Shown here one piece after another: positions 33,275 to 53,646 of a DNA stretch of 62,540 nucleotides. The translations under genes were made by a program, and so were the position numbers. Below the pieces are notes generated by a model. That model searched no databases. It saw nothing but the letters and a program-made list of their open reading frames with translations, and had not been told where the DNA came from. Source of the DNA: an uncultured Victivallales bacterium (GTDB taxonomy: Bacteria > Verrucomicrobiota > Kiritimatiellia > UBA8416); the NCBI GenBank assembly GCA_964598575.1, contig CAZRCN010000001.1:1-62540 (forward strand), written 5' to 3'. The stretch's first letter is position 1. Each line of letters begins with the position of its first letter.

Positions 33275-33381
33275 ATCATCACCCTTCCTGTCTAGGTATG
33301 TAAACCCTCTGCCGGTTGTTTCTCCCGGAAGGGCTTTGTCTCCGTATCCCTTTACCATGGCCCGCGGCAGGGTATGCCGTG

Positions 33382-35274: not shown

Positions 35275-35414
35275 CCTTTTACTCCTACCTTCACCGCACA
35301 ACGATTCCGAAACACCACCTGTTTCAGGTGTTCCGATGTGCACAATAGGGAATACTAGCAGCCCTGCAGCCTACCGAACAAGTGCATTCGTGCCTAATGA
35401 TGAGAAGCAGCATA

Positions 35415-36861: not shown

Positions 36862-37599
36862 CTACTTCCGATCCGAGATTGTGCCCGTATCAATGTTCAA
36901 CTCGGACTTCAACTTGATATCGGTGATCTTTCCATCCACGAGATACACCACCCGGTCCGACGCTGCCAGCATTTTGTGGTCATGCGTCGCACTGATAATG
37001 GTCTTGCCCGCTTCGCGTTTGAAGCGGTCAAGCATCATGATAATCTCTTCCCCCGTCTTCAAGTCCAGATTGCCCGTGGGCTCGTCCGCCAGGATAATGT
37101 CCGGATCGTTGGCCATCGCACGCGCGATCGCTACCCGTTGCTGCTGTCCACCCGACAACTGCTCGGGGCGGTGATCATACCGTGCCCCCAGACCCACCAT
37201 ATCCAGCAACATACGCGCCCGTTTTGAGGCAACATCATCCTCTTCCCCCGCAAACGTCATCGGCAACATTACATTCTGCTCTGCCGTCATCACCTGGATC
37301 AGATTAAACGTCTGGAAAATAAATCCGACCTTGTGACAGCGAAGATACGCGATCTGGCGCGAATCCATCTGGCGCACATCGAATCCATCCATCAGGACCG
37401 CGCCTTCCGTTGGACGATCCAGCCCGCCAATCATGTTAAACAACGTACTTTTGCCAGAACCCGAGGGCCCCATGATGCTAAGATACTCCCCTCGCTTGAT
37501 GTCCAAGTCAACGCCGGCCAGGGCCCAGACCTCCTCTTCCCCCATCATATAGCGCCGCTTCACGCCCTTGGCTGATACAATCGTGTTGCTATCGGACAT
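36862..37599 (-). CDS. ABC transporter ATP-binding protein (MacB/LolD/FtsE-type), ATPase 2 of the operon
   Basis: ATG at 37599 follows GGAGGG and overlaps the upstream gene by 11 nt. GPSGSGKST, FQTFNL, LSGGQQQRVAIARA, ILADEPTGNLD, ATHD. Confidence 0.9.
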   Translation of the reverse strand: MSDSNTIVSAKGVKRRYMMGEEEVWALAGVDLDIKRGEYLSIMGPSGSGKSTLFNMIGGLDRPTEGAVLMDGFDVRQMDSRQIAYLRCHKVGFIFQTFNLIQVMTAEQNVMLPMTFAGEEDDVASKRARMLLDMVGLGARYDHRPEQLSGGQQQRVAIARAMANDPDIILADEPTGNLDLKTGEEIIMMLDRFKREAGKTIISATHDHKMLAASDRVVYLVDGKITDIKLKSELNIDTGTISDRK

Positions 37600-38395
37600 T
37601 GGTTTGTCCCTCCTGAATGTCAAGCTCATCGCGAGCCACATATCGCTCTATCATTCCATCTGTCAACCAGGCGATCCGGTCAGACACCGACAACATCTTG
37701 TAATCATGCGTGGCGCTGATCACCGTCACCCCTTCGTTTTTATTGATCTCCCGCAGCAGATCAATGATCTGACGCCCCGTGTGGCTGTCCAGATTCCCGG
37801 TCGGTTCATCCGCCAGGACAATGGCCGGATTATTCGCAAGTGCACGCGCTACCGCCACCCGCTGCTGCTGGCCCCCGGACATTTGCACCGGCTTATGCAG
37901 AATGCGTTCACCCAGCCCCACCTTCTTGAGCAGTGCCACAGCCCGGTCCTGCGCCTCGGTCTGGGCCACATCGGCAAACAGCATCGGCAACATCACGTTG
38001 TCCAGGGCTGTCGCCACCGGAATCAGATTGAACGTCTGGAAGATGTATCCGATCTTGTGGCAACGCAACCAAGCTAGCTCGAAGGTATTCAGCGCCGCTA
38101 TATCCACCTCATCAATAAAGACCTTGCCCGCATTCGGTTTATCCAGACCTCCAATGGCATTAAACAAGGTGCTTTTCCCGGAACCCGAAGGCCCCATGAT
38201 GGCCACATACTCGCCGCGTTGCACCTTGAAGTTTACCCCCTTCAGGGCATGCACGGTTTCATCGCCCATCTTGAAGGTACGCCGCACCCCCAATGCCCGC
38301 ACAATATTCGTGGCCATGAAGGACGCATTCTCATTCCCTTCGCGGGGAATGGCCACTTCCGCCCCGCCCGTCTGCTCTACTTCTTTTTCACTCAC
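37589..38395 (-). CDS. ABC transporter ATP-binding protein (MacB/LolD/FtsE-type), ATPase 1 of the operon
   Basis: GTG start 6 nt after GGGAGG. GPSGSGKST, FQTFNL, MSGGQQQRVAVARA, VLADEPTGNLD, ATHD. ~25-aa N-terminal extension. Confidence 0.9.
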   Translation of the reverse strand: MSEKEVEQTGGAEVAIPREGNENASFMATNIVRALGVRRTFKMGDETVHALKGVNFKVQRGEYVAIMGPSGSGKSTLFNAIGGLDKPNAGKVFIDEVDIAALNTFELAWLRCHKIGYIFQTFNLIPVATALDNVMLPMLFADVAQTEAQDRAVALLKKVGLGERILHKPVQMSGGQQQRVAVARALANNPAIVLADEPTGNLDSHTGRQIIDLLREINKNEGVTVISATHDYKMLSVSDRIAWLTDGMIERYVARDELDIQEGQTNVR

Positions 38396-38407: not shown

Positions 38408-39061
38408 TTACACTTCTGTCCGCATCGCATCCACAGGCTCCATCTTGGCCGCACGCCATGCCGGATATAATGCACCGCACACACTCAAAAACACGCCGGC
38501 CAGAAACGAGATGACCATGATCCTTAGCAGCGACAGCAGCGGGATCAAGGTCCAGACCTCCTGCCCGAAACGGCCCCACCCTTCCAGATAGGCCAGAAAT
38601 ACGCCCAGCAGCAAACCCAGAACCGTGCCCACCAAGCCCTGGAAGAGACTCTCCAGCAGATACAGCTTCACAATAAAGGAATCGAGCCCACCCAGGCATT
38701 TCATCGTCCCGATTTCACGGAAACGTTCGGTCACGCTGATCAACATCGCATTGACAATCCCCACAAAGCTGATCAGCATTGCAATGGCCAGCATCCAGGT
38801 CGTCTGCGCCTGCTGCTCCGGACTCAGCATCTGCTCCAAAAGCCCCTCCCGCGCCAACTCCTGCAGCAGCGACTCCGATACCCGATCCCCAATGTGCGAA
38901 ACCATCTCGTTCGAGCAACTGATATACGTCAGAAACGTCAGCGCCAGCGCAATACAGCAGGTCACCAGAAAGGTCTTTAACAACCGCACCCGCAGCCCGC
39001 GCCACGCCACTTGCAGCACCTTGCGGTAGGGTAATACAACAATTTTTTGCATTTCAGCCAT
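38408..39061 (-). CDS. Minimal FtsX-type ABC permease (4 TM, ~60-aa ectodomain)
   Basis: TM1 TFLVTCCIALALTFLTYI, then a short loop, then the FtsX block MLISVTERFREIGTMKCLGGLDSFIVKLYLLESLFQGLVG and two more TMs. Confidence 0.8.
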   Translation of the reverse strand: MAEMQKIVVLPYRKVLQVAWRGLRVRLLKTFLVTCCIALALTFLTYISCSNEMVSHIGDRVSESLLQELAREGLLEQMLSPEQQAQTTWMLAIAMLISFVGIVNAMLISVTERFREIGTMKCLGGLDSFIVKLYLLESLFQGLVGTVLGLLLGVFLAYLEGWGRFGQEVWTLIPLLSLLRIMVISFLAGVFLSVCGALYPAWRAAKMEPVDAMRTEV

Positions 39062-39066
39062 AACAA

Positions 39067-39438
39067 TTACTTCTCCATATCCATCACCACTAACCCTTTA
39101 GTCATCAGCGTTTGCATAAATTTTGTGACGGCTATCTCTGCCTCCGGAACACTCAGATGCTGATCGCGGGCAAAACGCTTGATCATCGCCTGCACCGTTC
39201 GTTTCCCATTACAACCTTCATACACATACCGCCCATAGGCATCCAGCCCAAATGTCCGTTCCGCCGTTTCAGCGGCCCCCAGCCAACGCTGCCAGCGCGG
39301 ACGCAAAAACCGGATCGTCACTAACAGTTTCTCTTGCTTTTCCTCCGTCCGCACCGGTGGAACCGGAAAGGGCCGTCCACGTAACGCCGCCCGGCGTGCC
39401 GCCGGGCTTGCCACATGCCTTTTTTTCCTACCAGCCAT
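39067..39438 (-). CDS. PqqD-family (peptide-binding, RRE-like) protein with a basic N-terminal tail
   Basis: AAGGAG RBS. LDAYGRYVYEGCNGKRTVQAMIKRFARDQHLSVPEAEIAVTKFMQTLMTKGLVVM fits the PqqD pattern (l.n..g..iw.l.dG.rTv.ei...l...y.v..e....dv..Fl..L...gLi). N-terminus MAGRKKRHVASPAARRAALRGRP. Confidence 0.6.
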   Translation of the reverse strand: MAGRKKRHVASPAARRAALRGRPFPVPPVRTEEKQEKLLVTIRFLRPRWQRWLGAAETAERTFGLDAYGRYVYEGCNGKRTVQAMIKRFARDQHLSVPEAEIAVTKFMQTLMTKGLVVMDMEK

Positions 39439-39474: not shown

Positions 39475-40461
39475 TTACATCTGCGGGGCAGCCGGGAATC
39501 GATTCATTCCATCAATCAACGTGCAACACATGCTCTCCTGCGCCTGCCCACGGGCGGCATGTTCGGCAATCAACAAACGGTTCCGTTGCTGGTCGTGCAC
39601 CCCCAGTGCCGCCGTACTGCGGGGCGCATACCATCCCAACGGTGCCGGAATCCGTTTCCAACCGCGTCGTACCATACCGGACAAATCGGGCTTGCCAGGA
39701 TGACGCCACGTCCGTGCCTGCATCGAGCGCGGACGCAACCGGCGATGCTCCTTAAAGGGTGCCACATTCAACCATTTTTCCCACGAACGCCGCTTCAAAG
39801 CCAGATCCCCCGGATAGACCTGTCGGACCAGCAAGGTCTCCTGCCTCCCTTTGGCAAACAGCAATGCCACATCGCCAGCAAACAGGTGGCGTTGCATCAG
39901 CTCGAATCCGGCTGGAACCGTAAATTGCACCTCGTACATCGACCATAGTCGCTGCGTGTCCAAAGGGGTCGCCCGCAGCGTCGGCAAGATCGATGTAACC
40001 ACGATCCGCCGGATCTCTTTGTCCAAAACCCCGTTCAGGGTAATGCCGAGCAGCAGATCTGCCTTCTCGGAATAGCCATACCAGTAGGTCGTCTCCTTGC
40101 CTTCTTCCGTCTGTAGATCACGCGCCCATCCCACCGCGGTAAAATGCTCGGCGGCCGGTGGGTTCGGCTGCGGATGCGCTCCGTGCTGCCCTAACCGGGA
40201 ACGAACCCACTCGCACCCATCCGTGATCCGCGCGTTCTGCGGACGCGCCCATTTTACGCTGAAAATCGCAACATCGTGGTTACCCACAATCATCTGGCCC
40301 TTGTCGGTCGTCCCCAGCAATTTCAACGGTTGCCAGCTTTCCGGCATCCAAAACTGCCACCCCGCCCAGGCCAGTAAAGAAAAGGCATTCTCTCCCGCCT
40401 CGGAAACAGCCGGCTGTCCGGTCTGCTGCACCTCTTCCGGGTATGGTTCCTGTCCTATCAT
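39475..40461 (-). CDS. Soluble hypothetical protein (328 aa), possibly an internal tandem duplication
   Basis: No TM and no signal peptide. The two halves share a W..F..P..(W/F)....L..G.......(V)..W/Y.(R)P pattern (WQFWMPESWQPLKLLG...SVKWARP versus WSMYEVQFTVPAGFELMQ...VRQVYP). Confidence 0.5.
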   Translation of the reverse strand: MIGQEPYPEEVQQTGQPAVSEAGENAFSLLAWAGWQFWMPESWQPLKLLGTTDKGQMIVGNHDVAIFSVKWARPQNARITDGCEWVRSRLGQHGAHPQPNPPAAEHFTAVGWARDLQTEEGKETTYWYGYSEKADLLLGITLNGVLDKEIRRIVVTSILPTLRATPLDTQRLWSMYEVQFTVPAGFELMQRHLFAGDVALLFAKGRQETLLVRQVYPGDLALKRRSWEKWLNVAPFKEHRRLRPRSMQARTWRHPGKPDLSGMVRRGWKRIPAPLGWYAPRSTAALGVHDQQRNRLLIAEHAARGQAQESMCCTLIDGMNRFPAAPQM

Positions 40462-40574: not shown

Positions 40575-42572
40575 TTATAGCGGCAACACCACATTTACGC
40601 TCTTCATCATAAAGACGACCCCCAGCGCCAGCATCGAGATAAGCCCTACGCCAGCCCCGAAACCTGCGGCAAACACAATACGATACTGGGGCCATCGATC
40701 ACCAAACCATTTGCGGCACCCGTAGCGGCCCAGCAAAGCCCCGATAATCGTGGGGATAATGGAATGCGGCAAGGACTGGTCGAGCCCACGCACCACACCA
40801 TAGACCAGGAACACCGGCAAATTGAAGTGGGCCAGAACCGCATAGAGGCACAATGCCCCCCCGAGACCGGCCCCGATATAATCAAGCCGGAATGCTTCCT
40901 GGAACGGACTCACACCTGCATCCGGCAAGGTCGACGTAGCTATCAGGCCCTGCTGATAGGCCTGCAGCTCCCAGAATTCATTTGCATACGGAAACATCTC
41001 GCTCGGAACCGGTCCCATCGACCAGATAAACTGCGCAAACAAGAGCGTACTGATAATCATCAGGGGGTAGGTAATCGCTTCCGCCTTGATCAACGCCGTG
41101 AATTTGGTGCCCGTTAATTCCATCGTCCGGAATTCGAGCACCTGCTGCGCATGATTATGCAGGGGAATCGGCGCGTACCAGATGGCCGCACCTTTATACC
41201 CGGACAACATGAAGGTTGCTTCCCGGACAAATGGGATCTGGAGCTGCATCCCGACCAAGCCCTCCATGCGTGCCGACATGTAACTCACAAAGGGCGTCCA
41301 CACAAATCCATAGAACATCAGCAACCACAACGGGAACGGATCCCCCGCAAGCGGCCCCGACTTGTGATTGATCAGGTAGTAGGCAATCGAGATATACGAG
41401 ATCGTCGATACAATATAAATGATCACGCCCAGCCAGATCGGGATATCCCCGCGCTCGGGGTTACGGTGCAGCAACCGCTTCCACTCCACCTTGGTCGCCC
41501 CCACATCATCCGCTTCCTCCTTGCGCTTCTTCAGCTTCGAGTACATATGCAGGAACCCGATAACGGCCACCGCAAACATCAACCCCAACCCGAAACTGAA
41601 ATAAAAGTCAAAGTGATTGGCACGCACTACCTCCATGGCATTAAGGCCGGGTTCCCAGCTCGTAAGAACGCCATAGTGATACAGGATCGGGTTGGCAATC
41701 ATCGTGAATAGCACCCCGAAGAGACTACCCATGATCGCCATGAAGGGCATCACCATACCCGTGACCATGAGGCCCAGATCAAAGGACATCATAATCGGCA
41801 TCGCCGGCAACACCCCCTCCGTATAGTGCGTTAAATCGGCAAAAGGTATAGGGATAATTCGCATCGGTCGCCCGAAGGCAGCCGCCGTGATACTCGGTAA
41901 ACCAATGTAGATGGCACCAAAGAAAATGCCGAGCGCACCGCCCATCGAGAAAACCTTGGTGCGCCAGGTTTCGCGCTCGTTCGAGGAATCCGCCAGTGCC
42001 GTCATACCGGCGGCACCCACTGGCGCCAGCGGGAACGGCAATTCCTCGACATCGGCGGTCAACCGGTACATGATGTATCCCAACCCGAAGTTGTCTACCC
42101 GCGTCAGGAACATCATCAAGGCCCCAATACCAACGGGCCACATCCACTCCCACATGAAGAAACTACGCTCGGCCAGCACCGCCGGATCCGTTGGCACATA
42201 CCACGACGGGAGGAACTCCGTCAGTCCCATCTTGCGAATTTCCTCGCTTTGCGCAAAAAACTGGCGCCAGAGCCAGCCCCGCCCCCCCGCAGCCATGGCC
42301 GCGCCGCTCATGTAGAACAGGATGAAAATCTGTGGCCGCTTGAGCTTCACCAGCGCCCGCCGCGCAATTTCAACGTATAGCAGTACGGTAACCCATTTGG
42401 CTGCACCACCCATATGCAGCCCTGCAACCAGATTCATGTACACATTCGCCGGTGCCATGATCAGGCCCACAAACAGCCCCATCAGTACTGTGCCCCAACT
42501 GATCCCCTCCTCAAACGTATCGGGAGCCGTCATCAGGTTTCGAAATTCCTGGAATTCTTTGTCTTCGCGCAT
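40575..42572 (-). CDS. Polytopic membrane protein (665 aa, ~14-16 TM), distantly OPT-transporter-like by eye
   Basis: N-terminus WGTVLMGLFVGLIMAPANVYMNLVAGLHMGG resembles the OPT-family start (..aaNaYlGLkvGlt..). Hydrophobic spans run throughout. Confidence 0.5.
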   Translation of the reverse strand: MREDKEFQEFRNLMTAPDTFEEGISWGTVLMGLFVGLIMAPANVYMNLVAGLHMGGAAKWVTVLLYVEIARRALVKLKRPQIFILFYMSGAAMAAGGRGWLWRQFFAQSEEIRKMGLTEFLPSWYVPTDPAVLAERSFFMWEWMWPVGIGALMMFLTRVDNFGLGYIMYRLTADVEELPFPLAPVGAAGMTALADSSNERETWRTKVFSMGGALGIFFGAIYIGLPSITAAAFGRPMRIIPIPFADLTHYTEGVLPAMPIMMSFDLGLMVTGMVMPFMAIMGSLFGVLFTMIANPILYHYGVLTSWEPGLNAMEVVRANHFDFYFSFGLGLMFAVAVIGFLHMYSKLKKRKEEADDVGATKVEWKRLLHRNPERGDIPIWLGVIIYIVSTISYISIAYYLINHKSGPLAGDPFPLWLLMFYGFVWTPFVSYMSARMEGLVGMQLQIPFVREATFMLSGYKGAAIWYAPIPLHNHAQQVLEFRTMELTGTKFTALIKAEAITYPLMIISTLLFAQFIWSMGPVPSEMFPYANEFWELQAYQQGLIATSTLPDAGVSPFQEAFRLDYIGAGLGGALCLYAVLAHFNLPVFLVYGVVRGLDQSLPHSIIPTIIGALLGRYGCRKWFGDRWPQYRIVFAAGFGAGVGLISMLALGVVFMMKSVNVVLPL

Positions 42573-42632: not shown

Positions 42633-45600
42633 CTACGCAGGTGGCCTGTCCTCGGTAACATGTTTTTCCAGCGTTTCCGCCTCCTCTAGATATGCGAGGA
42701 TTCGATCAGCACTCAGCTTCCGCCAGCCCAGCAATTGACGCCGCACATCGCTGAAAAAGGGCTTATTCAACCGCCACCAGACCTTTTCAGCACCCGCCTC
42801 ATGCACAATTTCGGCCGATATCGAGCAGGTTTCGTCCTCCGGTAGATTCACCAGAATCCGTAACTTTTGCCGCACGCCCATATCGTAGGGTTCGAGCCAG
42901 AGTCGTGCCTCCAACGCCGCAACCGATCCCTTCGTTCCCGGCGGGAGGACCTGGATCTGATCCACATCGAATCCGCCCAGAACCCCATCCCGGTGTGCAT
43001 CCAGATACTCACACAGGAATGCAATCAGTCCAGGCGCTGCCTGCTCATTCACCGTGAAGGGCAGCATATCGCGGATCACCCCGTCTTCCGGCGTCGGCAC
43101 CTTCCAGTCCATCTCCGTCGATGGTGCCGCAATGCGTCCCGCCACAACGGCTGGCACGATGGCCGACAATACCACAACCCCCTGCACCAGCAGCATCGTT
43201 TTGATGACAGCCGTACCAGAGTAGTTCAGCGTAATGCCTGTCATGAAATCAAAATGGGAAAGTACGGTAGCGGTTGCTTGCCCCGCGATATAGCCGAATA
43301 CCGCCCCCATCAGGCCATAAGTAAGTGCTTCCGCCACAAAGAGAACCCCGACATGCGTGGGCGCCAGGCCCAGACTGGTGTAGACATAGATTTCCTTCTT
43401 CCGCTCACTGACCGAGTTCAGCATTGTCGTAAAGATAATCAAGGCGGCAATCACGAGCGGGATAGCAAGATTCTTCGGTGGAATCGCCACCAGGGGCGTT
43501 GCGACCACCACGCTAACCCCGCCGTCCTTGTTGGTGTAATACGCCGGGTACACGATCGTCTTCATCAACTCGTTCGCAACGGCGACGGCTTGGTCGGTAT
43601 CCGCGCAGGCGATGCCGATGCTGCGTAGGGTCCCACCAAATTCCCGCGTTACTGCAGTCGGCAGAATGATCAACGAGCGGGCCGGCGTGAAGATTTCGGA
43701 CTCATCGCCGGTGGGCTGCATCGCTGCTGCCGAGGAGGTTTCCTGCTCGATTACATCCTGCGAATCCCGGTTGATCCAGTCCTGCGCCTGCTGCGTATAA
43801 TCATACGGTGTGATACGCTGACCATCGAGAAGGCGAATATCATCTTCGAGCACCAATGGGTCAAACACACCGCGTACAACGAACGCTACCCCCCGCAGAA
43901 CAATCGTATCGCCCGCTTGCACCTCCATCGCTTCCGCAACGACATCCGGCAGATAACAGCCCCCGTCCGCAGCAAACTGCTCCCAGTTCGGCAATACACG
44001 ATCGATCCCGCTTAACGCATCTTCCACGGGCGGAACCCCCAACGCGCCCTGCACCGGAAGCTGTTCACCCGTTTGCGGATTCAATAGATGCAACCGATAG
44101 GTGATCTCCCCCAGACCCCCTCCCAGCCAGGCGCGTTCCCCCACTTTCACATCATAATGTCCCAGTAGGTTGTGCACGGCTGCCGCCGCATGCCAGTTCA
44201 ATTCCCCGAAAGTCGGACGCCGGATCAGTACCGACGCGTTGGGTGCTGTCACCCCCTCCAGCTTGAAATCCTTCTTGTCGATATAACTGCTCGCCGAGGA
44301 AAAACACAACAGCGCAAACGTCACGAGCACAATGGTCGAGCCAGTCAGGAACGTGCGGACCTTGCGCTTACGCATGTTCGCAATCCCTAGAAACACTGCA
44401 CTGCCCAGGACGCCACCGCGCCCCATGTTCGCCCCGCTACCCTCCGCCAGCGAACTCTGGAACTCCTGCACGGACGCCTTGAAGCGCTTGAGTACCATAC
44501 TGATCACCACCAGACTCATCGCCAGGATGGCAAAGGACATCACGATCACCAGCGGCTGCGCACTGATCCGGAAAGCCGGATGGAAACTCCACAGCAACGC
44601 CGTCATCCCCGCGAAGATCGCCAAGGCACCAATGATCTGCCGCCCGACATGGGCCGCCGCAAACAGCAATCGCTCCATCGCAATCGAGAACGGCACCAGC
44701 ATCAGCATCAGGAATATGGCGCCCCGCGAAATGTCCATGCCCATCTCCTTGACGGCCTGATACGCCCGGATCTCGTTCGCCAGCGCCTTGGATGCGGCCC
44801 GCTTCAACCCGGCCCCGTCATCAGCCTCCCGATAGCCGTCTGCTACCTCCAACTCGGTGCGGGTCGCCTTCCGGATTTCATCAATCTTGCCACTTTCGAT
44901 TCCCGCTGATCGGTAGTCCGTCAACCGCCATTCATTCAGCGTGTACAAATCGCGTGCCGCAATATATTCCGGAATCGTCTCCAGGGTCTCCTCCACCGCA
45001 AAACCTCGCTGGAAGGTACCACGCAGATCAAGACCGAGCTCGCGACCGTTCTCCAAGGCATTGAGCAACGCCATCCGGATACGTGTAGCGCCTGCGCGCA
45101 GAATGATCTGCCAGCGAATATCAGGTTCGACCAGCCCCCACATCTGGCCATGCTCATCCATACTGAAGGTGGCTTGCTTCGGACTGCCCCCCCGGAGCGC
45201 ATCCAGCAGGGATGCCTCCTGCAGCGGCTCCAGGAACCGTACATCAAAAAAGGACGGTCCGTTCAGTTCTGTCGAACCGAAGGTAACCACCCGCGGAAGC
45301 TGATCACCGGGTTTATTCCCCAGGTTGAACGTGGTAGTCAGCCGGGTACTGACCATGGATTCGGTCGTGGACAGGGACTCCACCAGATTGCCCCATTCAT
45401 CCACCAGGACTGCCACTAGATCGAACGACTGGACGTAGCGGTTTATCTTCGCCGGCATCAACGGAATACGCAGGGCCCCATCAGCATCGGTCCAGCCAAA
45501 GTTATGCCGGCGAATGCCATCCATGCTTTGAGAGCTCCCACCCCCGACAAAGGTGCAGAGAAACCCCGGGCGCGGTACCCGCGGCACCGTCTCACCCGCC

Positions 45601-47753
45601 GACACGGCCACGACCCGCCCCATCCCGTGCCGCCAATTCGCCGTGGATTCCCCTACCGGGCGCACGTCCGGCTCGTAGTCGTCACTCGTGAACAACCATT
45701 GCAGAAAGGCCAATGATGGGGCCAGTTGCGGTGTGATTCGCGCCCAATCCAGTCGGTCAAATGTATCCAGTGGCGAATCCGGACGCAGGCGATCTGCATC
45801 ATCCGTCAACCACGTAATGCCCTGCAATCCGAAACTGAATACACTCGACGTCACCAAGGGGCGAGCCCCAATCCATCCCCCGCCGCTCGGACGGCCCGAA
45901 AGAGCCGGCAGGTTCACGGAACGGCGCATGTCGGACCCCTCCGGCCATATATCGCCCCGGCGAACCGCAAAGCGTAGCGCACGCTCCAGGCGTCGGTCGG
46001 TTCCTGGGATTCGGTTCATCGGGCACTCGAGTCCCGGCCCGACCATCAAACCACAGTCTGACAGATCCAACCCCACCACCAGCGCGGTGGCCGAGGTAAG
46101 CTCTGGATCCCCTTCCACCCCGAAATACGTCACGATCTGGCGTCGAATTGCATCCATAGGGGTAAAGAAGTTCAATCGATCCAGTTGCTCCGCATGCTGC
46201 TGCTCAATGCGATCCGCCATGCGGTTCCAGAGCATACGGGCAACCGGCACATCCTGCTCCTGCAGGGAACTCCCGTCCCGATAGACGGTTTCCAATACCC
46301 GATTCCGGATGCGAATCGGGTCGGTATAGATAGCCAGCATCTGCGCCGCATACTGCTTGCCCACCTCAAAGGCATCCCAGGCATCCGCCAGTACGTCTCC
46401 CGTCGGTTGCGCTACTTCCTCCTCTACCATCCGCAGCCGCTGCTCCTCCACAAACGCGGCCGCAGCCTCCAGCGTCACATGGTCTTCCTCTGTAAGCTCC
46501 TGGGCATGATGCTCCAGCAACCACGTGCGCCCTTCTTCCAGAATCCCGAGGATCTCCTCCCGCGTCACGAGGGTATTCTCTTCCGCCCGGCGCTGGGATG
46601 CCAATCGCAATTCGCCCTGGAGCTGTTTGAGGCGCAGGACCTCCGGCCCTACCGCATCCTTGTAGAGACGGCGAATGTGTTTGGCGCGGCTCCGGTCATG
46701 CATGATGGCCAGCCCCGCATCGGCACTTTCAAATGACTGGAACTCTTCTAATGCCGCCTGATACGCCTCCAGACGCTCTTGCTCAATCTCCGTATATGCT
46801 TTGCGGGTTCGGCCATCTGGTGTTACCGATAGCATGGCGGCCATGTAACGCATGCCCAGATGGTTCAGGTGATACGCATCCAGAAAACCGAACAGCAGGG
46901 AACGGGAGGGATCGGCCGCCTCATCCCGCAGGAGGTTCAGTACCGTAGCGGCATCCAGTGCAATATCAGCACCCGGCGCCACCCCGTAGACCTTGCTCAT
47001 CGAATCATATGGTGCCACCACCGCATACGGTTTGTCCCCTTGGGCACCCGAGCCCTTCACGCCTACATAGATGTTGCGCGCTTGCTTCTCCTGCCAACTG
47101 CCGCGACAGAGTATCCGCCCCTCCTTCAATGCGCCGGACCGTAGCGCATCCGCCAACGGCCCCTCCGGCACGTAGTACCGCGGCTTGTAGAGCGATTGCT
47201 TCCCGCTCATGAGGCTCCTGCCCGGTTCGTCCGATTCCAGCAGAATCACGGCAACCGCACCAAAATCAAATGCCCGGCGGTAGTTGCCATAGGCAGAAAG
47301 CTCCATCACGGCGATATTCCCGCGCAAGGACTGGGCCGGCATGTCGGCTAACTCGGCCTCCCCGATATACCGGAACCGACCACTAATCCCGTACCGGGGC
47401 GTTGTATTCAGACGGGCCACATCCGGCCAAATCGGATGGATCGTATGCTGCCCGGCCATCTCGCCACTGTCCAGTTCCAGATAGGTTTCTTCATACACCG
47501 GCACCACAACCGGGAACTCGTGCACCCAGACTTCCGTGCCGGGGATGGCCTTGACCTTCTCCAGCAGGGCATCCTGTACCGCACGGTGCTCCTCGGTGCC
47601 CACTTGCCGCGTCGCAAAGGAGGATAGCCATGCCGTATCTGCCTGTACACGCGCCGCAAACGAGTTTGTCTCGTCAGCCCTGGCAATCCCGGCTGAACCC
47701 AGCCCCAGCAGGATCACCGCCATCATTATGCTCGCTGTATGCCTGTCTCTCAT
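42633..47753 (-). CDS. Giant (1706 aa) envelope protein: signal/anchor + degenerate M28-like ectodomain with coiled-coil insert + two FtsX/MacB-type permease modules + cytoplasmic tail
   Basis: The start is set at ATG 47753; the ORF-track start 48194 overlaps the upstream gene by 388 nt, and 47726 is an alternative. Motifs: YAVVAPYDS, LLFGFLDAYHLNHLG, LRPDSPLDTFDRLD (M28-like), ANMRKRKVRTFLTGSTIVLVTFALLCF (MacB TM1), LNSVSERKKEIYVYTSLGLAP (FtsX block). Confidence 0.7.
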   Translation of the reverse strand: MRDRHTASIMMAVILLGLGSAGIARADETNSFAARVQADTAWLSSFATRQVGTEEHRAVQDALLEKVKAIPGTEVWVHEFPVVVPVYEETYLELDSGEMAGQHTIHPIWPDVARLNTTPRYGISGRFRYIGEAELADMPAQSLRGNIAVMELSAYGNYRRAFDFGAVAVILLESDEPGRSLMSGKQSLYKPRYYVPEGPLADALRSGALKEGRILCRGSWQEKQARNIYVGVKGSGAQGDKPYAVVAPYDSMSKVYGVAPGADIALDAATVLNLLRDEAADPSRSLLFGFLDAYHLNHLGMRYMAAMLSVTPDGRTRKAYTEIEQERLEAYQAALEEFQSFESADAGLAIMHDRSRAKHIRRLYKDAVGPEVLRLKQLQGELRLASQRRAEENTLVTREEILGILEEGRTWLLEHHAQELTEEDHVTLEAAAAFVEEQRLRMVEEEVAQPTGDVLADAWDAFEVGKQYAAQMLAIYTDPIRIRNRVLETVYRDGSSLQEQDVPVARMLWNRMADRIEQQHAEQLDRLNFFTPMDAIRRQIVTYFGVEGDPELTSATALVVGLDLSDCGLMVGPGLECPMNRIPGTDRRLERALRFAVRRGDIWPEGSDMRRSVNLPALSGRPSGGGWIGARPLVTSSVFSFGLQGITWLTDDADRLRPDSPLDTFDRLDWARITPQLAPSLAFLQWLFTSDDYEPDVRPVGESTANWRHGMGRVVAVSAGETVPRVPRPGFLCTFVGGGSSQSMDGIRRHNFGWTDADGALRIPLMPAKINRYVQSFDLVAVLVDEWGNLVESLSTTESMVSTRLTTTFNLGNKPGDQLPRVVTFGSTELNGPSFFDVRFLEPLQEASLLDALRGGSPKQATFSMDEHGQMWGLVEPDIRWQIILRAGATRIRMALLNALENGRELGLDLRGTFQRGFAVEETLETIPEYIAARDLYTLNEWRLTDYRSAGIESGKIDEIRKATRTELEVADGYREADDGAGLKRAASKALANEIRAYQAVKEMGMDISRGAIFLMLMLVPFSIAMERLLFAAAHVGRQIIGALAIFAGMTALLWSFHPAFRISAQPLVIVMSFAILAMSLVVISMVLKRFKASVQEFQSSLAEGSGANMGRGGVLGSAVFLGIANMRKRKVRTFLTGSTIVLVTFALLCFSSASSYIDKKDFKLEGVTAPNASVLIRRPTFGELNWHAAAAVHNLLGHYDVKVGERAWLGGGLGEITYRLHLLNPQTGEQLPVQGALGVPPVEDALSGIDRVLPNWEQFAADGGCYLPDVVAEAMEVQAGDTIVLRGVAFVVRGVFDPLVLEDDIRLLDGQRITPYDYTQQAQDWINRDSQDVIEQETSSAAAMQPTGDESEIFTPARSLIILPTAVTREFGGTLRSIGIACADTDQAVAVANELMKTIVYPAYYTNKDGGVSVVVATPLVAIPPKNLAIPLVIAALIIFTTMLNSVSERKKEIYVYTSLGLAPTHVGVLFVAEALTYGLMGAVFGYIAGQATATVLSHFDFMTGITLNYSGTAVIKTMLLVQGVVVLSAIVPAVVAGRIAAPSTEMDWKVPTPEDGVIRDMLPFTVNEQAAPGLIAFLCEYLDAHRDGVLGGFDVDQIQVLPPGTKGSVAALEARLWLEPYDMGVRQKLRILVNLPEDETCSISAEIVHEAGAEKVWWRLNKPFFSDVRRQLLGWRKLSADRILAYLEEAETLEKHVTEDRPPA

Positions 47754-47806: not shown

Positions 47807-49822
47807 TTAGGGATACTGCATCAGGATGTAGCGTGGCACCGTCTCCGGGTCGGCCCCCGTCAGGAGCACGATGCCTACCGGCACCAACGTCCATGTAATG
47901 ATGGCCAGCAACTCCCCGATGATGAGCCCCAGAAACAGCGGTCGCGCCTTGCGGTATACGCCGCCCCCGAACAAGCGCGTAATAAAGGTCTTGAGTAGCC
48001 ACCCCAGGAATACGCTGAACCAAAGGAGACTGCCAATGGAGATGCGCGCCAGGATGATGCCGACCGGATGAATGGGCCAGGCCGGGAACCGCGAGCACAA
48101 CCACAGCAACCCGGACCCCATCCCAACGCCAATCACCTGATGCATCCGCCCCGAATCCCAGAATTGGAAGTTCGTTCGATCTACACGCATCCACTCATTC
48201 ATGGCCGTGGAGCTCATCTTTGCATTTGTGCTGACCGCAAAATTCTCATAATGCATAAAGATATGTACGGCCCCGCAGATCACAAATCCCATCAACAGGA
48301 CAACCAATCCCCCGAGCAACAAGCGCCGCTGATGCTTGGGCCCCGCTTCACGGTCGGCCCCCAATGCCAGCGTCGTCATGACGGAGACGCTCACAGCCGT
48401 TGCACGGGTGATCAAGGCATAAAAGACATTCGTAAAGAGCAGGATGGTGGGAGACAGCCACGTGAGCGGGAAAAAGCCCGTTATATGTGCAATAGACAAC
48501 CGTCCCACCCATAAGCTGGGCAAACCGGTTTCCGCAATAATGCGCGCCATCAAGAGGGCAACCATGGCGCAACCGAGCATGGCCACCACACTCCACCAGA
48601 GCGGACACCCGGCCCAGTGCAACCAGAAGACAATGCCTGCACACCCCAGCACAAACATCCAGCCCGCAAACGAGTTGCGCCGGGCCTCGGCATCCGAGCC
48701 CGCTTTGCCAAACATCGCCTTGCCCACCTTGCACCAATGGGCACGCCCCAGAAACAAGACCCAGCCCACAATGGCCAGCAGCACCCCGAAGGATTGGTCA
48801 CCCACCTGGCCTTCCTTAAACGCGGGAATATACGCTTTTCCCAACGTCAGGTACCACGAATAGCCAAAGACCCAGCCCCAGATCGAAATGGCATAACGGC
48901 TCGGGATAAAGTAGGCCACCCCTACCACCGAAAAGAAGATGACCTGCCAATTAAAGGCCTGCGGGGCATACCGCAGGATATTATCCGTATAATACTGCCG
49001 CATCTCCCAGCGCAGCGGAATCGACGGAAACGCCCCCGTAAACTCATGCAAGCCACGTAACAGGTGGATCCCGAACACGACCCCGCACCCAATCCAGAAG
49101 GCACGGCTATAGAAAATGCCCGGCAGGAGCCGCTTGTGTTCCGCATCGGTTTCATCCCCGATAAAGGCATGATATACATGTAGCAAGGGGAACGGCAGCC
49201 GCTCATTATGCCGCCACTGGGGATACACGACCCCGCCCAACCCGATCATCATTGCCCAGAGGGCTAGCAGCAACATCCCCCAGGAGGCCATCGGCACCAG
49301 CCAATCTCCCCACGGGATCCCTTCCCCCTCATATAACTCCTCCAAAAACTGGTCAGAAACCGGCGTTTGATACCGGACGACGTTACCTTCCTCATCCAGC
49401 GTTGGCACCGGATCCGGGAATAACGACTGCCGCAAATCCGTCTCTGCCGCAATCTGCGAGGTCGTCAGGTTGCTGTTCATGTCCCGGCTCATCTGGGCAA
49501 CCATGCGCGGGAACATCCGCATCAACCCATTACTCGGAATAATCGCCGCAAACAACATCATCCCGGTTATCAGCGCAATTTGATGCCGATTGAGCATCCA
49601 GCGGCGGTTCCGCAACCCCAGCAGCGGATTCACCAGCAGGACCAGCAACATCAGGAAACCAACCACCACTTCAGGCAGGTAGTTGTCTGCCAGATACGTG
49701 TTTTTCAGGACAAAGTTGTTGTACGGAACCAGAACCCATGCCAGTACAGAACCAACCAGCCCCAGCAAGGCTGCAATCACAGCCCGCTTGGTAGATAACA
49801 CTTCTCGCATAATGCTCCTCAT
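47807..49822 (-). CDS. Polytopic membrane protein (671 aa, ~14 TM), function unknown; first gene of the operon
   Basis: ATG at 49822. An alternative ATG at 49810 lies 4 nt after GAGGAG. Hydrophobic spans throughout (VIAALLGLVGSVLAWVLVPY..., WMFVLGCAGIVFWLHWAGCPLWWSVVAMLGCAMVALLMARI...). Confidence 0.55.
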   Translation of the reverse strand: MRSIMREVLSTKRAVIAALLGLVGSVLAWVLVPYNNFVLKNTYLADNYLPEVVVGFLMLLVLLVNPLLGLRNRRWMLNRHQIALITGMMLFAAIIPSNGLMRMFPRMVAQMSRDMNSNLTTSQIAAETDLRQSLFPDPVPTLDEEGNVVRYQTPVSDQFLEELYEGEGIPWGDWLVPMASWGMLLLALWAMMIGLGGVVYPQWRHNERLPFPLLHVYHAFIGDETDAEHKRLLPGIFYSRAFWIGCGVVFGIHLLRGLHEFTGAFPSIPLRWEMRQYYTDNILRYAPQAFNWQVIFFSVVGVAYFIPSRYAISIWGWVFGYSWYLTLGKAYIPAFKEGQVGDQSFGVLLAIVGWVLFLGRAHWCKVGKAMFGKAGSDAEARRNSFAGWMFVLGCAGIVFWLHWAGCPLWWSVVAMLGCAMVALLMARIIAETGLPSLWVGRLSIAHITGFFPLTWLSPTILLFTNVFYALITRATAVSVSVMTTLALGADREAGPKHQRRLLLGGLVVLLMGFVICGAVHIFMHYENFAVSTNAKMSSTAMNEWMRVDRTNFQFWDSGRMHQVIGVGMGSGLLWLCSRFPAWPIHPVGIILARISIGSLLWFSVFLGWLLKTFITRLFGGGVYRKARPLFLGLIIGELLAIITWTLVPVGIVLLTGADPETVPRYILMQYP

Positions 49823-51240: not shown

Positions 51241-51273
51241 CTCATCTCCTTTAACATATAAATCCAGATCCCT

Positions 51274-52293: not shown

Positions 52294-52533
52294 ATGCTTC
52301 CTCATCTCTCTTTCCCGTTCGCACGGCTTCGTATACATGCCAGGCGCATCGGCACACATGCCGATACACAGGATCAACAACGCGCGGTACCCTACCAGCT
52401 ACAGCCCCGCATGTCGACCCGCAACCATTGTCCGTTGCAATTTACAGTTTCCTTTCCGGTCGTTTTGACCTACATTTACCCGGCATCGGAGAAAAACGTA
52501 AGGAGTAAGTACGACCAACACAAAGGAAACATC

Positions 52534-53565: not shown

Positions 53566-53646
53566 TACTGCTCGGATCACACAATAACACTGTCCGCTAT
53601 TGACAACCATATGGGCTGCCCAGCAGCCCGCATGCCAGGGAGTCCC

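What the first reader, a model, noticed from the sequence alone, without database searches (positions are those of the whole stretch)
42633..47753. 1706-aa protein: a degenerate M28-like peptidase domain split by a coiled coil and fused to a tandem FtsX/MacB permease (an FtsEX-EnvC-like logic in one chain)
Topology read from the sequence:
- N-terminal hydrophobic segment (IMMAVILLGLGSAGIA)
- ~1000 aa of predicted periplasmic sequence
- three hydrophobic spans (FLMLMLVPFSIAM, IIGALAIFAGMTALLWSF, LVIVMSFAILAMSLVVISMVL)
- a basic cytoplasmic linker leading into a MacB-type TM1 (ANMRKRKVRTFLTGSTIVLVTFALLCF)
- a second ~330-aa ectodomain
- a canonical FtsX block (LNSVSERKKEIYVYTSLGLAP...)
- a ~215-aa cytoplasmic tail

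The in/out alternation is self-consistent.

By eye, the first ectodomain aligns with M28 aminopeptidase motifs, but the ligand positions are changed. YAVVAPYDS stands where the family has HxDS. LLFGFLDAYHLNHLG stands where the family has EExGLxGS, so Glu-Glu becomes Tyr-His. About 330 aa of E/Q/R/L-rich, probable coiled coil then intervene. After that come ALVVGLDLS and LRPDSPLDTFDRLD, where the family has YHTxxDTxDxLD, so His becomes Asp.

In FtsEX-EnvC, an inactive metallopeptidase domain plus a coiled coil is driven by an FtsX-type mechanotransmitter. There the domain is a degenerate LytM/M23 on a separate protein. Here the equivalent parts are covalently fused and use a different peptidase fold.
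Basis: partly seen in the sequence, partly recalled or inferred. Interest (0 to 1): 0.75.

Follow-up and report, generated by a model that had tools for sequence, protein, structure and literature searches.

The report
Dead peptidase fused to FtsX permease
This gene encodes a 1706-residue envelope protein in which a catalytically dead aminopeptidase-like domain is fused to one MacB/FtsX-type ABC permease unit; it belongs to a large, unstudied gene cassette found in hundreds of mostly uncultured bacteria.

Summary
The ORF is real: window 42633-47753, minus strand, 1706 aa. Relatives occur in at least 591 species genomes and 925 protein clusters.

- A family profile matches PA-domain M28 aminopeptidases (2ek8, E=2.4e-13) and nicastrin.
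- An AlphaFold model of aa 28-1005 (pLDDT 91) matches the same enzymes, the transferrin receptor and GCPII.
- Both zinc-binding His residues, the zinc-binding Glu and the catalytic Glu are replaced (Y249, D659, H295, Y294).
- No canonical His was seen at either position in about 270 homologue sequences. The whole family is a pseudo-peptidase that keeps a conserved Asp cluster.
- The M28 fold is split by a helical insert.

Corrections:
- The insert is about 230 aa and consists of eight helices of at most 29 residues, not one long coiled coil.
- There is only one FtsX unit. The N-terminal hydrophobic segment looks like a cleavable signal peptide, and the first 3-TM block shows no FtsX similarity.

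The gene sits in a conserved cassette: an OPT-like DUF6785 protein, this gene, a second OPT-like permease, a 328-aa protein, a PqqD-like protein, a small FtsX without an ectodomain, and LolD/MacB-type ATPases.

Best reading: a new variant of a type VII ABC mechanotransmission machine with a non-catalytic binding head. Its substrate is unknown.

The parts
42633..47753 (-). Whole gene, 1706 aa plus the stop codon.
   Evidence: ORF and translation. Full-length homologues at 36-68% identity.
47673..47753 (-). aa 1-27: probable cleavable Sec signal peptide (MRDRH, hydrophobic core, ARA|DE).
   Evidence: Hydropathy. The N-termini of 18 homologues have unconserved signal-peptide-like sequences. Region identity is 0.19. 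Cleavage is inferred.
47124..47453 (-). About aa 101-210: PA (protease-associated) domain nested in the M28 fold.
   Evidence: The profile alignment to 2ek8 residues 87-189 and to BSAP covers their PA domains. Foldseek also matches.
46812..47123 (-). About aa 211-314: N-terminal half of the M28-like domain. Y249 replaces the first zinc His. D250 and D263 are kept. Y294 and H295 replace the Glu-Glu pair.
   Evidence: alignment; Pfam M28 in homologues; column tallies.
46122..46811 (-). aa 315-544: helical insert of eight helices of at most 29 residues. It is rich in E, R and L and is the least conserved region.
   Evidence: DSSP on the AlphaFold model. Composition. Identity 0.41/0.17/0.10 in close, middle and distant homologues.
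45678..46121 (-). aa 545-692: C-terminal half of the M28-like domain. D563 sits at the end of a strand (GLDLSD). D659 replaces the second zinc His (RPDSPLD663).
   Evidence: Secondary-structure order in the model. Foldseek alignments of 290-390 columns. A sub-threshold collinear match to BSAP WYHTPED. The region gives no sequence hit on its own.
45054..45677 (-). aa 693-900: beta-rich periplasmic domain of unassigned fold.
   Evidence: AlphaFold strands at model residues 680-869, pLDDT about 90. No PDB sequence hit in this region.
44733..45053 (-). aa 901-1007: three long stalk helices leading into the membrane.
44484..44732 (-). aa 1008-1090: accessory block of three TM helices. It is highly conserved and not FtsX-like by sequence.
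   Evidence: Hydropathy. hhalign negative. Identity 0.77. It falls inside the PADLOC PDLC01991 match.
44295..44483 (-). aa 1091-1153: basic cytoplasmic linker, elbow helix (NMRKRKVRT) and MacB-type TM1.
   Evidence: Aligns to the YtrF N-terminus NMKKNRLRVF.
43479..44294 (-). aa 1154-1425: second ectodomain, MacB/LolC-like periplasmic core.
   Evidence: AlphaFold pLDDT about 90-97. Foldseek to MacB, LolC/E and HrtB. Pfam MacB_PCD is detected in homologue L075.
43119..43478 (-). aa 1426-1545: FtsX domain (TM2-TM4 with the coupling helix SERKKEIYVYTSLG).
   Evidence: Pfam PF02687 at 45.1 bits. PDB hits to YtrF, MacB and LolC/E/F.
42636..43118 (-). aa 1546-1706: cytoplasmic alpha/beta tail domain of uncertain fold.
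   Evidence: AlphaFold order is beta-alpha-beta4-alpha2. Weak Foldseek hits to Bet v1/START-like proteins, E=0.02. No PADLOC CARF match.
47807..49822 (-). Upstream gene: DUF6785+DUF6784 multi-TM protein, 671 aa, remotely OPT-like.
   Evidence: Pfam. hhalign against m665: probability 86%, E=5e-6. Found upstream in 24/62 loci.
40575..42572 (-). Downstream gene 'm665': divergent OPT-family permease. It is the most conserved cassette member.
   Evidence: 6/17 orthologues hit Pfam OPT, best E=1.7e-11. Present directly downstream in 62/73 loci, at up to 92% identity.
39475..40461 (-). 328-aa soluble protein with no known family.
   Evidence: No Pfam or PDB hit. Syntenic in 47/68 loci.
39067..39438 (-). 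123-aa PqqD-like protein.
   Evidence: Pfam PF05402, E=6.4e-7. Syntenic in 47/68 loci.
38408..39061 (-). 217-aa FtsX protein with four TMs and almost no ectodomain. It is the likely second permease unit.
   Evidence: Pfam FtsX, E=8.7e-20. TM map. 38% identical to the giant's FtsX block, E=9e-8. Syntenic in 44/64 loci.
36862..38395 (-). Two adjacent LolD/MacB-type ABC ATPase genes (268 and 259 aa).
   Evidence: Pfam ABC_tran, E of about 1e-34 each. Walker A, signature, Walker B-Glu and H-loop motifs are readable. An ATPase is syntenic in 49/63 loci.

Best explanation
The gene encodes the large subunit of a conserved type VII (MacB/FtsX/LolCE-type) ABC envelope machine.

**Architecture (shown)**
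- A Sec signal peptide comes first.
- A periplasmic head of about 980 aa follows. It is built on an M28 aminopeptidase fold with a nested PA domain. It has lost both zinc-binding His residues, the zinc-binding Glu and the catalytic Glu. It keeps an invariant cluster of Asp residues at the former metal site.
- The head carries a variable helical insert, a beta-rich domain and a helical stalk.
- An accessory 3-TM block follows.
- One complete MacB-type unit comes next: elbow helix, TM1, a Porter/Sabre-like ectodomain, and TM2-4 with a coupling helix.
- A cytoplasmic tail domain ends the chain.

**Mechanism (inferred)**
- The single FtsX unit pairs with the small FtsX protein that lacks an ectodomain. 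This resembles LolC/LolE.
- The pair docks the one or two LolD-like ATPases encoded in the operon.
- ATP binding and hydrolysis move the stalk helices and the MacB-like ectodomain (mechanotransmission).
- That movement repositions the dead-peptidase head. The head acts as a ligand- or partner-binding module, not as an enzyme. Nicastrin, nicalin and the transferrin receptor use the same fold this way.

**Ligand (most speculative step)**
- The acidic pocket, the peptidase ancestry and the strictly co-conserved OPT-like permeases and PqqD-like protein favour a peptide-like or amine-bearing envelope or nutrient ligand.
- That ligand would be captured or released at the membrane surface next to those permeases.
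For: **Fold and homology of the head**
- Family profile against PDB: 2ek8 2.4e-13, BSAP 8.5e-9, nicastrin 2.8e-6, nicalin 0.008.
- AlphaFold pLDDT 91.3.
- Foldseek to M28+PA enzymes, TfR and GCPII.
- Pfam M28 in distant homologues.

**Loss of catalysis across the family**
- Residue alignment.
- 0 His at position 249, 0 His at position 659 and only two Glu in total at positions 294/295 in about 190 cluster representatives. None of these in 80 genomic homologues.
- D250, D563, D659 and D663 are 93-100% conserved although the surrounding identity is 15-50%.

**MacB-type unit**
- Pfam FtsX.
- PDB hits to YtrF, MacB and LolC/E/F.
- Foldseek to MacB 1e-9, LolE, HrtB and YbbP.

**Partners**
- The small FtsX is a paralogue and the ATPases lie in the operon.
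- The cassette is conserved across PVC phyla, Sumerlaeota, Poribacteria and Armatimonadota.
- The TM parts are the most conserved regions, which fits a tightly packed membrane complex.
Against: - No experiment or complex model links the head to the FtsX unit's movement.
- The C-terminal model has only moderate confidence (pLDDT 77.9, pTM 0.59), so domain packing is unknown.
- The C-terminal half of the M28 fold has no significant sequence match on its own. The coil-excised chimera reaches only 19 bits, E=1.2e-3. The equivalences of D563 and D659 therefore rest on fold, collinearity and a sub-threshold alignment.
- I could not inspect the model coordinates to confirm that the Asp residues cluster in space.
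- The substrate and the role of the OPT-like, 328-aa and PqqD-like proteins are guesses from gene neighbourhood.
- Some distant homologues (L060-L077) lack the adjacent cassette.
Confidence: 0.55

Rival explanations
1. The protein is a single-chain FtsEX-EnvC analogue, in which the dead peptidase plus helical insert is an ATP-gated activator of a peptidoglycan hydrolase.
For: - It combines an FtsX-type unit with a degenerate metallopeptidase domain and a helical element in the periplasm.
- A Poribacteria homologue carries a weak LysM match at its N-terminus, and another carries a PPIase domain.
- FtsX of V. cholerae appears among the Foldseek hits, weakly (E=0.035).
Against: - No amidase or other cell-wall hydrolase was found in the cassette in the loci whose neighbouring genes were annotated.
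- The insert is eight short helices and is the least conserved region. It is unlike EnvC's long conserved coiled coil, which FtsX clamps.
- NCBIfam FtsX models score 12-14 bits against cut-offs of 250-255. LolC/E and MacB match better.
- The fold is M28, not M23/LytM.
- The conserved partners are OPT-like permeases and a PqqD-like protein.
Confidence: 0.12
2. The protein is a substrate extractor or exporter like LolCDE, HrtBA, MacB or YbbAP-TesA. The MacB-like unit expels or extracts a lipid-anchored or hydrophobic molecule from the inner membrane. The M28-like head is only a scaffold, spacer or acceptor.
For: - The best structural matches of the C-terminal half are MacB, LolE/LolC, HrtB and YbbP.
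- The ATPases are of the LolD/MacB type.
- The heterodimeric permease arrangement resembles LolC/LolE.
- YbbAP-TesA shows that type VII systems can hand substrates to an associated hydrolase-fold protein (abstract of PMC12646458, listed).
Against: - No membrane-fusion adaptor or outer-membrane factor gene is in the cassette.
- An invariant Asp cluster at the former active site argues that the head binds something specific.
- The model does not explain the OPT-like permeases.
Confidence: 0.2
3. The head is an active peptidase or another hydrolase that uses a non-canonical, all-carboxylate metal site.
For: D250, D263, D563, D659 and D663 are conserved. Cytoplasmic M24 and M42 peptidase genes lie nearby in the window.
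Against: - The general-base position (294) and the neighbouring ligand position (295) vary freely: Y/H/D/F/Q/N and H/G/F/S/A/T.
- Both His ligands are absent in every homologue examined.
- No known M28 enzyme works without them (established knowledge of the AAP, SGAP and GCPII active sites).
Confidence: 0.03
4. The protein is a cyclic-oligonucleotide (CARF)-controlled membrane effector of an antiviral defence system, as the PADLOC model name suggests.
For: aa 1001-1591 match PADLOC PDLC01991 'CARF_m8--CARF_LolE_TM' at E=6e-48.
Against: - The match covers only the TM/LolE-like core (profile positions 67-602 of 810).
- The cytoplasmic tail alone has no PADLOC hit at E<=1. Its predicted beta-alpha-beta4-alpha2 order is not Rossmann-like.
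- No CRISPR, cyclase or other defence genes are in the cassette.
- The cassette is chromosomal, vertically conserved and syntenic across phyla.
Confidence: 0.03

Closest known systems
Type VII ABC transporters: MacB, LolCDE, HrtBA, YtrEF, YbbAP-TesA, FtsEX
   Same: - FtsX domain with a coupling helix.
- Elbow helix plus TM1, and an ectodomain between TM1 and TM2.
- LolD/MacB-type ATPases.
- A second, different FtsX subunit in the operon, as in LolC/LolE.
   Different: - An extra periplasmic head of about 980 aa and an extra, conserved 3-TM block are fused upstream of the unit.
- The partner FtsX has almost no ectodomain.
- There is no adaptor or outer-membrane factor.
- The cassette includes two OPT-like permeases, a PqqD-like protein and a 328-aa protein of no known family.
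PA-domain M28 aminopeptidases (Aneurinibacillus AM-1 aminopeptidase 2ek8, B. subtilis BSAP/YwaD 6hc6, P. aeruginosa PaAP)
   Same: The fold and domain order are the same, with a PA domain nested in M28. The motifs GA-D, the D of HxD, and DTxDxLD are recognisable.
   Different: - His, Glu-Glu and His are replaced by Tyr, Tyr-His and Asp.
- A 230-aa helical insert follows the former Glu-Glu helix.
- The protein alone is below Pfam's M28 threshold.
Non-catalytic M28-fold proteins: nicastrin, nicalin, transferrin receptor 1
   Same: The M28/PA fold has lost its metal ligands and is used as a membrane-tethered binding or gating module. The family profile hits nicastrin (2.8e-6) and nicalin (0.008), and Foldseek hits TfR1.
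   Different: Those proteins are eukaryotic, have a single TM anchor and have no ABC coupling. The helical domain of TfR and GCPII is C-terminal, not inserted in the peptidase fold. The similarity is a parallel loss of catalysis, not orthology.
FtsEX-EnvC
   Same: The concept is the same: an FtsX-type motor together with a degenerate metallopeptidase domain and helices in the periplasm.
   Different: - EnvC is a separate protein with an M23/LytM fold and a long coiled coil that FtsX grips.
- Here the fold is M28, the helices are short and poorly conserved, the parts are fused, and no hydrolase partner is encoded.
PADLOC PDLC01991/PDLC01990 'CARF_m8--CARF_LolE_TM' and 'CARF_Beta-galactosidase_LolE_TM' families
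   Same: They share the 3-TM block plus LolE-like unit (E=6e-48 over aa 1001-1591). The second model's name suggests relatives with a different large ectodomain.
   Different: The part of the profile beyond position 603, presumably the CARF region, is not matched by the tail. The paper that defines the family (PMC7498327) could not be read here.

Membership tests
Type VII ABC permease (MacB/FtsX superfamily) | C-terminal FtsX domain (PF02687) above the gathering score. | tested here: met
   45.1 bits against 25.5, aa 1433-1538.
Type VII ABC permease (MacB/FtsX superfamily) | Four-TM unit with a large ectodomain between TM1 and TM2 and a cytoplasmic coupling helix between TM2 and TM3. | tested here: met
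   Hydropathy. AlphaFold helices and strands. Foldseek to MacB, LolC/E and HrtB over 450-530 columns, probability 1.0.
Type VII ABC permease (MacB/FtsX superfamily) | Cognate MacB/LolD-type ATPase. | tested here: met
   Two ABC_tran genes lie in the same operon. An ATPase is syntenic in 49/63 loci. Physical association was not tested.
Type VII ABC permease (MacB/FtsX superfamily) | ATP-driven mechanotransmission. | not testable with these tools
   This needs biochemistry or structures in different nucleotide states.
Tandem-FtsX permeases (YbbP-like) | Two FtsX domains in one chain. | tested here: not met
   Only one PF02687 hit. hhalign of aa 1000-1100 against aa 1425-1545 gives probability 0.3%. 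The N-terminus looks like a signal peptide. The YbbP Foldseek hit is weak (E=1e-4, TM-score 0.16).
Peptidase family M28 (active enzymes) | M28 alpha/beta fold. | tested here: met
Peptidase family M28 (active enzymes) | Co-catalytic zinc ligands His, Asp, Glu, Asp, His. | tested here: not met
   The five positions read Y249, D263, H295, D563 and D659. His is absent at both positions in all homologues examined.
Peptidase family M28 (active enzymes) | Catalytic general-base Glu (the first Glu of the Glu-Glu pair). | tested here: not met
   Y294. The column is variable across the family.
Peptidase family M28 (active enzymes) | Pfam PF04389 gathering score. | tested here: not met
   No hit at E<=0.1 for the native protein. 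The coil-excised chimera scores 19 bits against 21.3. Distant homologues do pass.
FtsEX-EnvC system | FtsX equivalog. | tested here: not met
   NCBIfam FtsX models score 12-14 bits against cut-offs of 250-255.
FtsEX-EnvC system | Long antiparallel coiled coil plus LytM (M23) domain. | tested here: not met
   The helices are at most 29 residues. The fold is M28, not M23.
FtsEX-EnvC system | Regulated amidase partner. | tested here: not met
   No such gene is encoded in the cassette. A partner encoded elsewhere in the genome is not excluded.
CARF_m8-LolE_TM (PADLOC PDLC01991) | LolE-like TM core. | tested here: met
   E=6.3e-48 over profile positions 67-602.
CARF_m8-LolE_TM (PADLOC PDLC01991) | CARF sensor domain. 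| tested here: not met
   The tail alone gives no hit at E<=1. Its predicted topology is not Rossmann-like.

The most novel reading that the evidence does not exclude
The cassette is a previously unrecognised class of type VII ABC machine. It is widespread in PVC-group and other uncultured diderm bacteria.

In this reading, an ATP-actuated, catalytically dead aminopeptidase head captures a peptide-like or amine-bearing ligand in the periplasm. It works together with two dedicated OPT-superfamily permeases. That would be a mechanical link between an ABC motor and secondary transporters, which has no described precedent.
Probability: 0.25. Interest if true: 0.8.

Novelty: new variant of a known kind. 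Interest (0 to 1): 0.6.

Why it matters
Type VII ABC systems (MacB, LolCDE, FtsEX, HrtBA, BceAB, YbbAP) each revealed a different use of mechanotransmission.

This family adds a large, phylogenetically broad group: at least 591 species genomes and 925 clusters at 50% identity. Its motor is fused to a pseudo-enzyme head and is always accompanied by OPT-like permeases.

It is also a clear bacterial example of an M28 fold turned into a non-catalytic module, in parallel with nicastrin, nicalin and the transferrin receptor.

Working out its ligand could explain an envelope or nutrient-acquisition process specific to Planctomycetota, Verrucomicrobiota, Lentisphaerota and their relatives.

No paper in the searchable library mentions DUF6785 or combines M28 with FtsX/MacB terms in a relevant way.

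Tried and rejected
- **Plus strand.** Translating the plus strand of the given coordinates gives only stop-rich sequence. The gene is on the minus strand.
- **Tandem FtsX.** Rejected by hhalign of the first 3-TM block against the FtsX block and by the signal-peptide-like N-termini.
- **C-terminal half of the M28 domain.** Searched alone against PDB sequences, it gave no M28 hit. A coil-excised chimera against Pfam reached only 19 bits. Sequence evidence for that half is therefore weak, and I rely on the fold match.
- **Homologues that keep the ligands.** None were found among 199 representatives and 80 genomic loci.
- **Partner proteins.** PDB profile searches for the 665-aa and 328-aa proteins found nothing. 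Pfam finds nothing for these two in the window copy. Orthologues of the 665-aa protein do hit OPT.
- **Defence-system reading.** The PADLOC label was considered and rejected.
- **Shorter homologues.** The 700-1100 aa hits looked like versions without the head. They are mostly fragments, or genes split in long-read assemblies.
- **Literature.** Searches for DUF6785, M28 with FtsX or MacB, and the operon's components found nothing relevant. The CARF classification paper is not held.
- **Model coordinates.** They are not exposed, so I could not superpose the model on 2ek8 or measure distances between the conserved Asp residues.


Full report
**1. Observation**

The coordinates hold a single ORF on the minus strand. 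The ATG is at 47753 and the stop codon ends at 42633, giving 1706 aa. A longer in-frame GTG start at 48194 would overlap the upstream gene, which ends at 47807, and homologues align from Met1.

Pfam finds one FtsX domain at aa 1433-1538 (45.1 bits). It finds no M28 match in this protein alone.

The gene is clearly real:
- 53 full-length or near-full-length relatives came from the word-indexed search.
- 925 clusters at 50% identity match the ectodomain at E<=1e-3, and 478 match at E<=1e-10.
- At least 591 species genomes carry a relative.

These genomes are mainly Victivallales (best match, 67% identity), Kiritimatiellia, Verrucomicrobiota, Lentisphaeria and Planctomycetota (Phycisphaerae, Tepidisphaerales, Pirellulales, Brocadiia). 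Sumerlaeota, Poribacteria, Armatimonadota, Latescibacterota and Gemmatimonadota also appear. Nearly all are metagenome-assembled genomes.

**2. The M28-like head**

Three lines of evidence support M28 homology.
- A profile of 38 family members hits the PA-domain M28 aminopeptidase 2ek8 (E=2.4e-13), B. subtilis BSAP/YwaD (8.5e-9), nicastrin (2.8e-6), leucyl aminopeptidase 2anp (0.006) and nicalin (0.008).
- Five distant homologues, plus homologues in Latescibacterota and Poribacteria, pass Pfam's own M28 threshold. They always match profile positions from 1 (or 10) up to 72-127 only, which means the domain is interrupted.
- An AlphaFold model of aa 28-1005 is confident (pLDDT 91.3, pTM 0.90). 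Its best Foldseek matches are 2ek8, BSAP, the M28 protein 3iib, PaAP, transferrin receptor 1 and GCPII, at E from 2e-13 to 1e-9.

| Canonical M28 element | 2ek8 or BSAP | This protein |
|---|---|---|
| First zinc His (HxD motif) | HHDS | PY249D250S |
| Bridging Asp | GAnDDASG | GAD263 |
| Catalytic Glu and zinc Glu | GAEENGLIGS | DAY294H295LNHLG |
| Zinc Asp at a strand end | not aligned | D563 in GLDLSD |
| Second zinc His | WYHTPED (BSAP) | RPD659SPLD663 |

The last two rows are less secure. D563 lies at the end of a predicted beta strand, where M28 enzymes place their Asp ligand. The RPDSPLD alignment to BSAP is collinear but below threshold. That His is the second zinc ligand in GCPII and AAP; this point rests on my own knowledge of those active sites. 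The C-terminal half has no significant sequence hit alone. A coil-excised chimera reaches only 19 bits. These two equivalences therefore rest mainly on the fold match.

The loss of catalytic residues is family-wide.
- In about 190 cluster representatives, position 249 is Y, F, L, M, V or I and never His.
- Position 659 is Asp in 141 of 152 sequences and never His.
- Positions 294 and 295 vary freely, and Glu appears only twice in total.
- The same holds in 80 genomic homologues from all the phyla.

In contrast, D250, D563, D659 and D663 are 93-100% conserved, although the surrounding identity is only 15-50%. D263 is kept as Asp or Glu in most sequences (133 of 175). The head is therefore a pseudo-peptidase that keeps a selected acidic site.

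**3. The insert and the rest of the head**

The insert spans aa 315-544, about 230 aa and not 330. It is predicted as eight helices of 7-29 residues, so it is a helical bundle and not a single long coiled coil. It is the least conserved region, with identity of 0.41, 0.17 and 0.10 in close, middle and distant homologues.

After the M28 C-terminal half come two further parts:
- a beta-rich domain (aa 693-900) with no assigned fold
- three stalk helices (aa 901-1007) that run into the membrane

Distant homologues add N-terminal accessory domains:
- a PPIase domain in P0052
- TPR at the N-terminus of P0053, plus a mid-protein Baseplate_J match
- a weak LysM match in Poribacteria

**4. The membrane part**

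The N-termini of homologues are unconserved and look like cleavable Sec signal peptides. Here the sequence is MRDRH, a hydrophobic core, then ARA|DE. The mature protein probably has seven TM helices, arranged 3 + 4.

The first 3-TM block has these properties:
- It shows no profile similarity to the FtsX block.
- It has only an 8-residue cytoplasmic loop where a coupling helix would be.
- It is highly conserved, at 0.77 identity.
- It is part of the module recognised by PADLOC model PDLC01991 'CARF_m8--CARF_LolE_TM' (E=6e-48 over aa 1001-1591).

The C-terminal model (pLDDT 77.9) shows an elbow helix, TM1, a confident ectodomain of about 270 aa, and TM2-4 with a coupling helix. Foldseek matches it to MacB (1e-9), LolE/LolC, HrtB, Spr0694-0695 and, weakly, YbbP, BceB and FtsX.

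'Tandem FtsX' is therefore not supported. There is one MacB-type unit plus an accessory TM bundle.

The 160-aa cytoplasmic tail is an alpha/beta domain with only weak Bet v1-like matches. It has no detectable CARF similarity.

**5. Context**

The gene lies in a minus-strand cassette:
- DUF6785+DUF6784 protein (671 aa)
- this gene
- a 665-aa multi-TM protein
- a 328-aa soluble protein
- a PqqD-like protein (123 aa)
- a 217-aa FtsX protein with four TMs and almost no ectodomain
- two LolD/MacB-type ATPases with intact motifs
- an M24 peptidase

The order is conserved across phyla. The counts below are for loci with enough flanking sequence.

| Cassette member | Loci with the gene in place |
|---|---|
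| 665-aa protein, directly downstream | 62 of 73 |
| 328-aa protein | 47 of 68 |
| PqqD-like protein | 47 of 68 |
| Small FtsX | 44 of 64 |
| ATPase | 49 of 63 |
| DUF6785 protein, upstream | 24 of 62 |

The 665-aa protein is a divergent OPT-family permease. Six of 17 orthologues hit PF03169, with best E=1.7e-11. The DUF6785 family is remotely related to it (hhalign probability 86%, E=5e-6).

The small FtsX is a paralogue of the giant protein's FtsX block (38% identity, E=9e-8).

No adaptor, outer-membrane factor, cell-wall hydrolase or defence gene belongs to the cassette.

**6. Mechanism**

The parts listed above are shown. The following steps are inferred.
- The giant protein's single FtsX unit pairs with the small FtsX, as LolC pairs with LolE, and binds the ATPases.
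- ATP-driven movement of the stalk helices and the MacB-like ectodomain is relayed to the adjacent pseudo-peptidase head.
- The head binds a ligand or partner through the conserved acidic pocket.

The identity of the ligand is the weakest step. A peptide-like or amine-bearing molecule handled together with the OPT-like permeases is my preferred guess. I put about 0.55 on the overall architecture-and-mechanism statement. I put much less, about 0.2-0.25, on the peptide/OPT coupling.

Rival readings are an FtsEX-EnvC-like regulator of a hydrolase (0.12), a Lol/Hrt/MacB-like extractor with a passive head (0.2), an active non-canonical peptidase (0.03) and a CARF-linked defence effector (0.03).

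**7. Comparison and novelty**

By tested criteria the protein belongs to the MacB/FtsX permease superfamily. It is a homologue of M28 peptidases but not an active member of that family. It is not an FtsX equivalog, not a tandem-FtsX protein, and not demonstrably a CARF protein.

It works most like other type VII ABC mechanotransmitters. The closest analogies for the head are nicastrin, nicalin and the transferrin receptor.

Searches of the paper library found nothing relevant on DUF6785, on M28 together with FtsX or MacB, or on the operon's components.

I rate it a new variant of a known kind, with interest 0.6. The family is large and the architecture is unusual, but the function is still unknown.

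Noticed in passing
window 40575-42572 (-): The 665-aa membrane protein downstream is more conserved than the giant gene: up to 92% identity where the giant gene is at 61%. The window copy has no Pfam hit, yet 6/17 orthologues hit the OPT oligopeptide transporter family (best E=1.7e-11).
   Followed up: partly
window 47807-49822 (-): The DUF6785+DUF6784 protein is remotely homologous to the 665-aa OPT-like protein (hhalign probability 86%, E=5e-6; shared E-x-LPFPL motif). These two Pfam DUFs are therefore probably divergent OPT-superfamily permeases.
   Followed up: partly
window 36862-38395 (-): Two paralogous LolD/MacB-type ATPase genes lie side by side, and their ORFs overlap by about 50 nt. 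In many other lineages both ATPase queries hit a single locus, which suggests only one ATPase gene there. The second copy would then be a lineage-specific duplication, perhaps giving a heterodimeric ATPase.
   Followed up: no
window 42636-43118 (-), aa 1546-1706: The cytoplasmic tail is predicted as a beta-alpha-beta4-alpha2 domain. It gives weak Foldseek hits to Bet v1/START-like ligand-binding proteins (E=0.02, probability 0.95). The PADLOC model name implies a CARF domain here, but none is detectable.
   Followed up: partly
L062 8852-16309 (+); P0052; P0053: Distant homologues carry extra domains. Poribacteria proteins of about 2485 aa have a weak LysM match at the N-terminus. P0052 has an N-terminal PPIC-type rotamase domain. 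P0053 has N-terminal TPR repeats and a mid-protein Baseplate_J-like stretch. These may hint at envelope or peptidoglycan association.
   Followed up: no
window 39067-39438 (-) and 39475-40461 (-): A PqqD-like (peptide-chaperone fold) protein and a Trp-rich 328-aa protein with no known family are conserved cassette members. Both lack signal peptides and TM segments, so they are probably cytoplasmic. Their role is unexplained.
   Followed up: partly
window 51430-53565 (+) versus 51274-52380 (-): The 711-aa plus-strand ORF matches the M42 aminopeptidase family only in its C-terminal about 300 aa. Its N-terminal part overlaps, antisense, a well-supported Zn-dependent alcohol/threonine dehydrogenase gene. 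The real M42 gene is probably much shorter.
   Followed up: no
window 29820-35343 and 50059-54819: The neighbouring genes are carbohydrate- and sugar-acid-related: GH31, a heparinase II/III-like protein, an aldo/keto reductase and an MR/MLE enolase-superfamily protein. GC skew is negative across almost the whole window, and most genes in the region examined are on the minus strand. This fits a polysaccharide-degrading PVC-group genome.
   Followed up: no
L086 6610-11482; L087 8479-13366: In some long-read assemblies the giant gene appears split into two adjacent ORFs (841+745 aa and 491+1121 aa). These are probably frameshift errors, not genuine two-gene versions.
   Followed up: no
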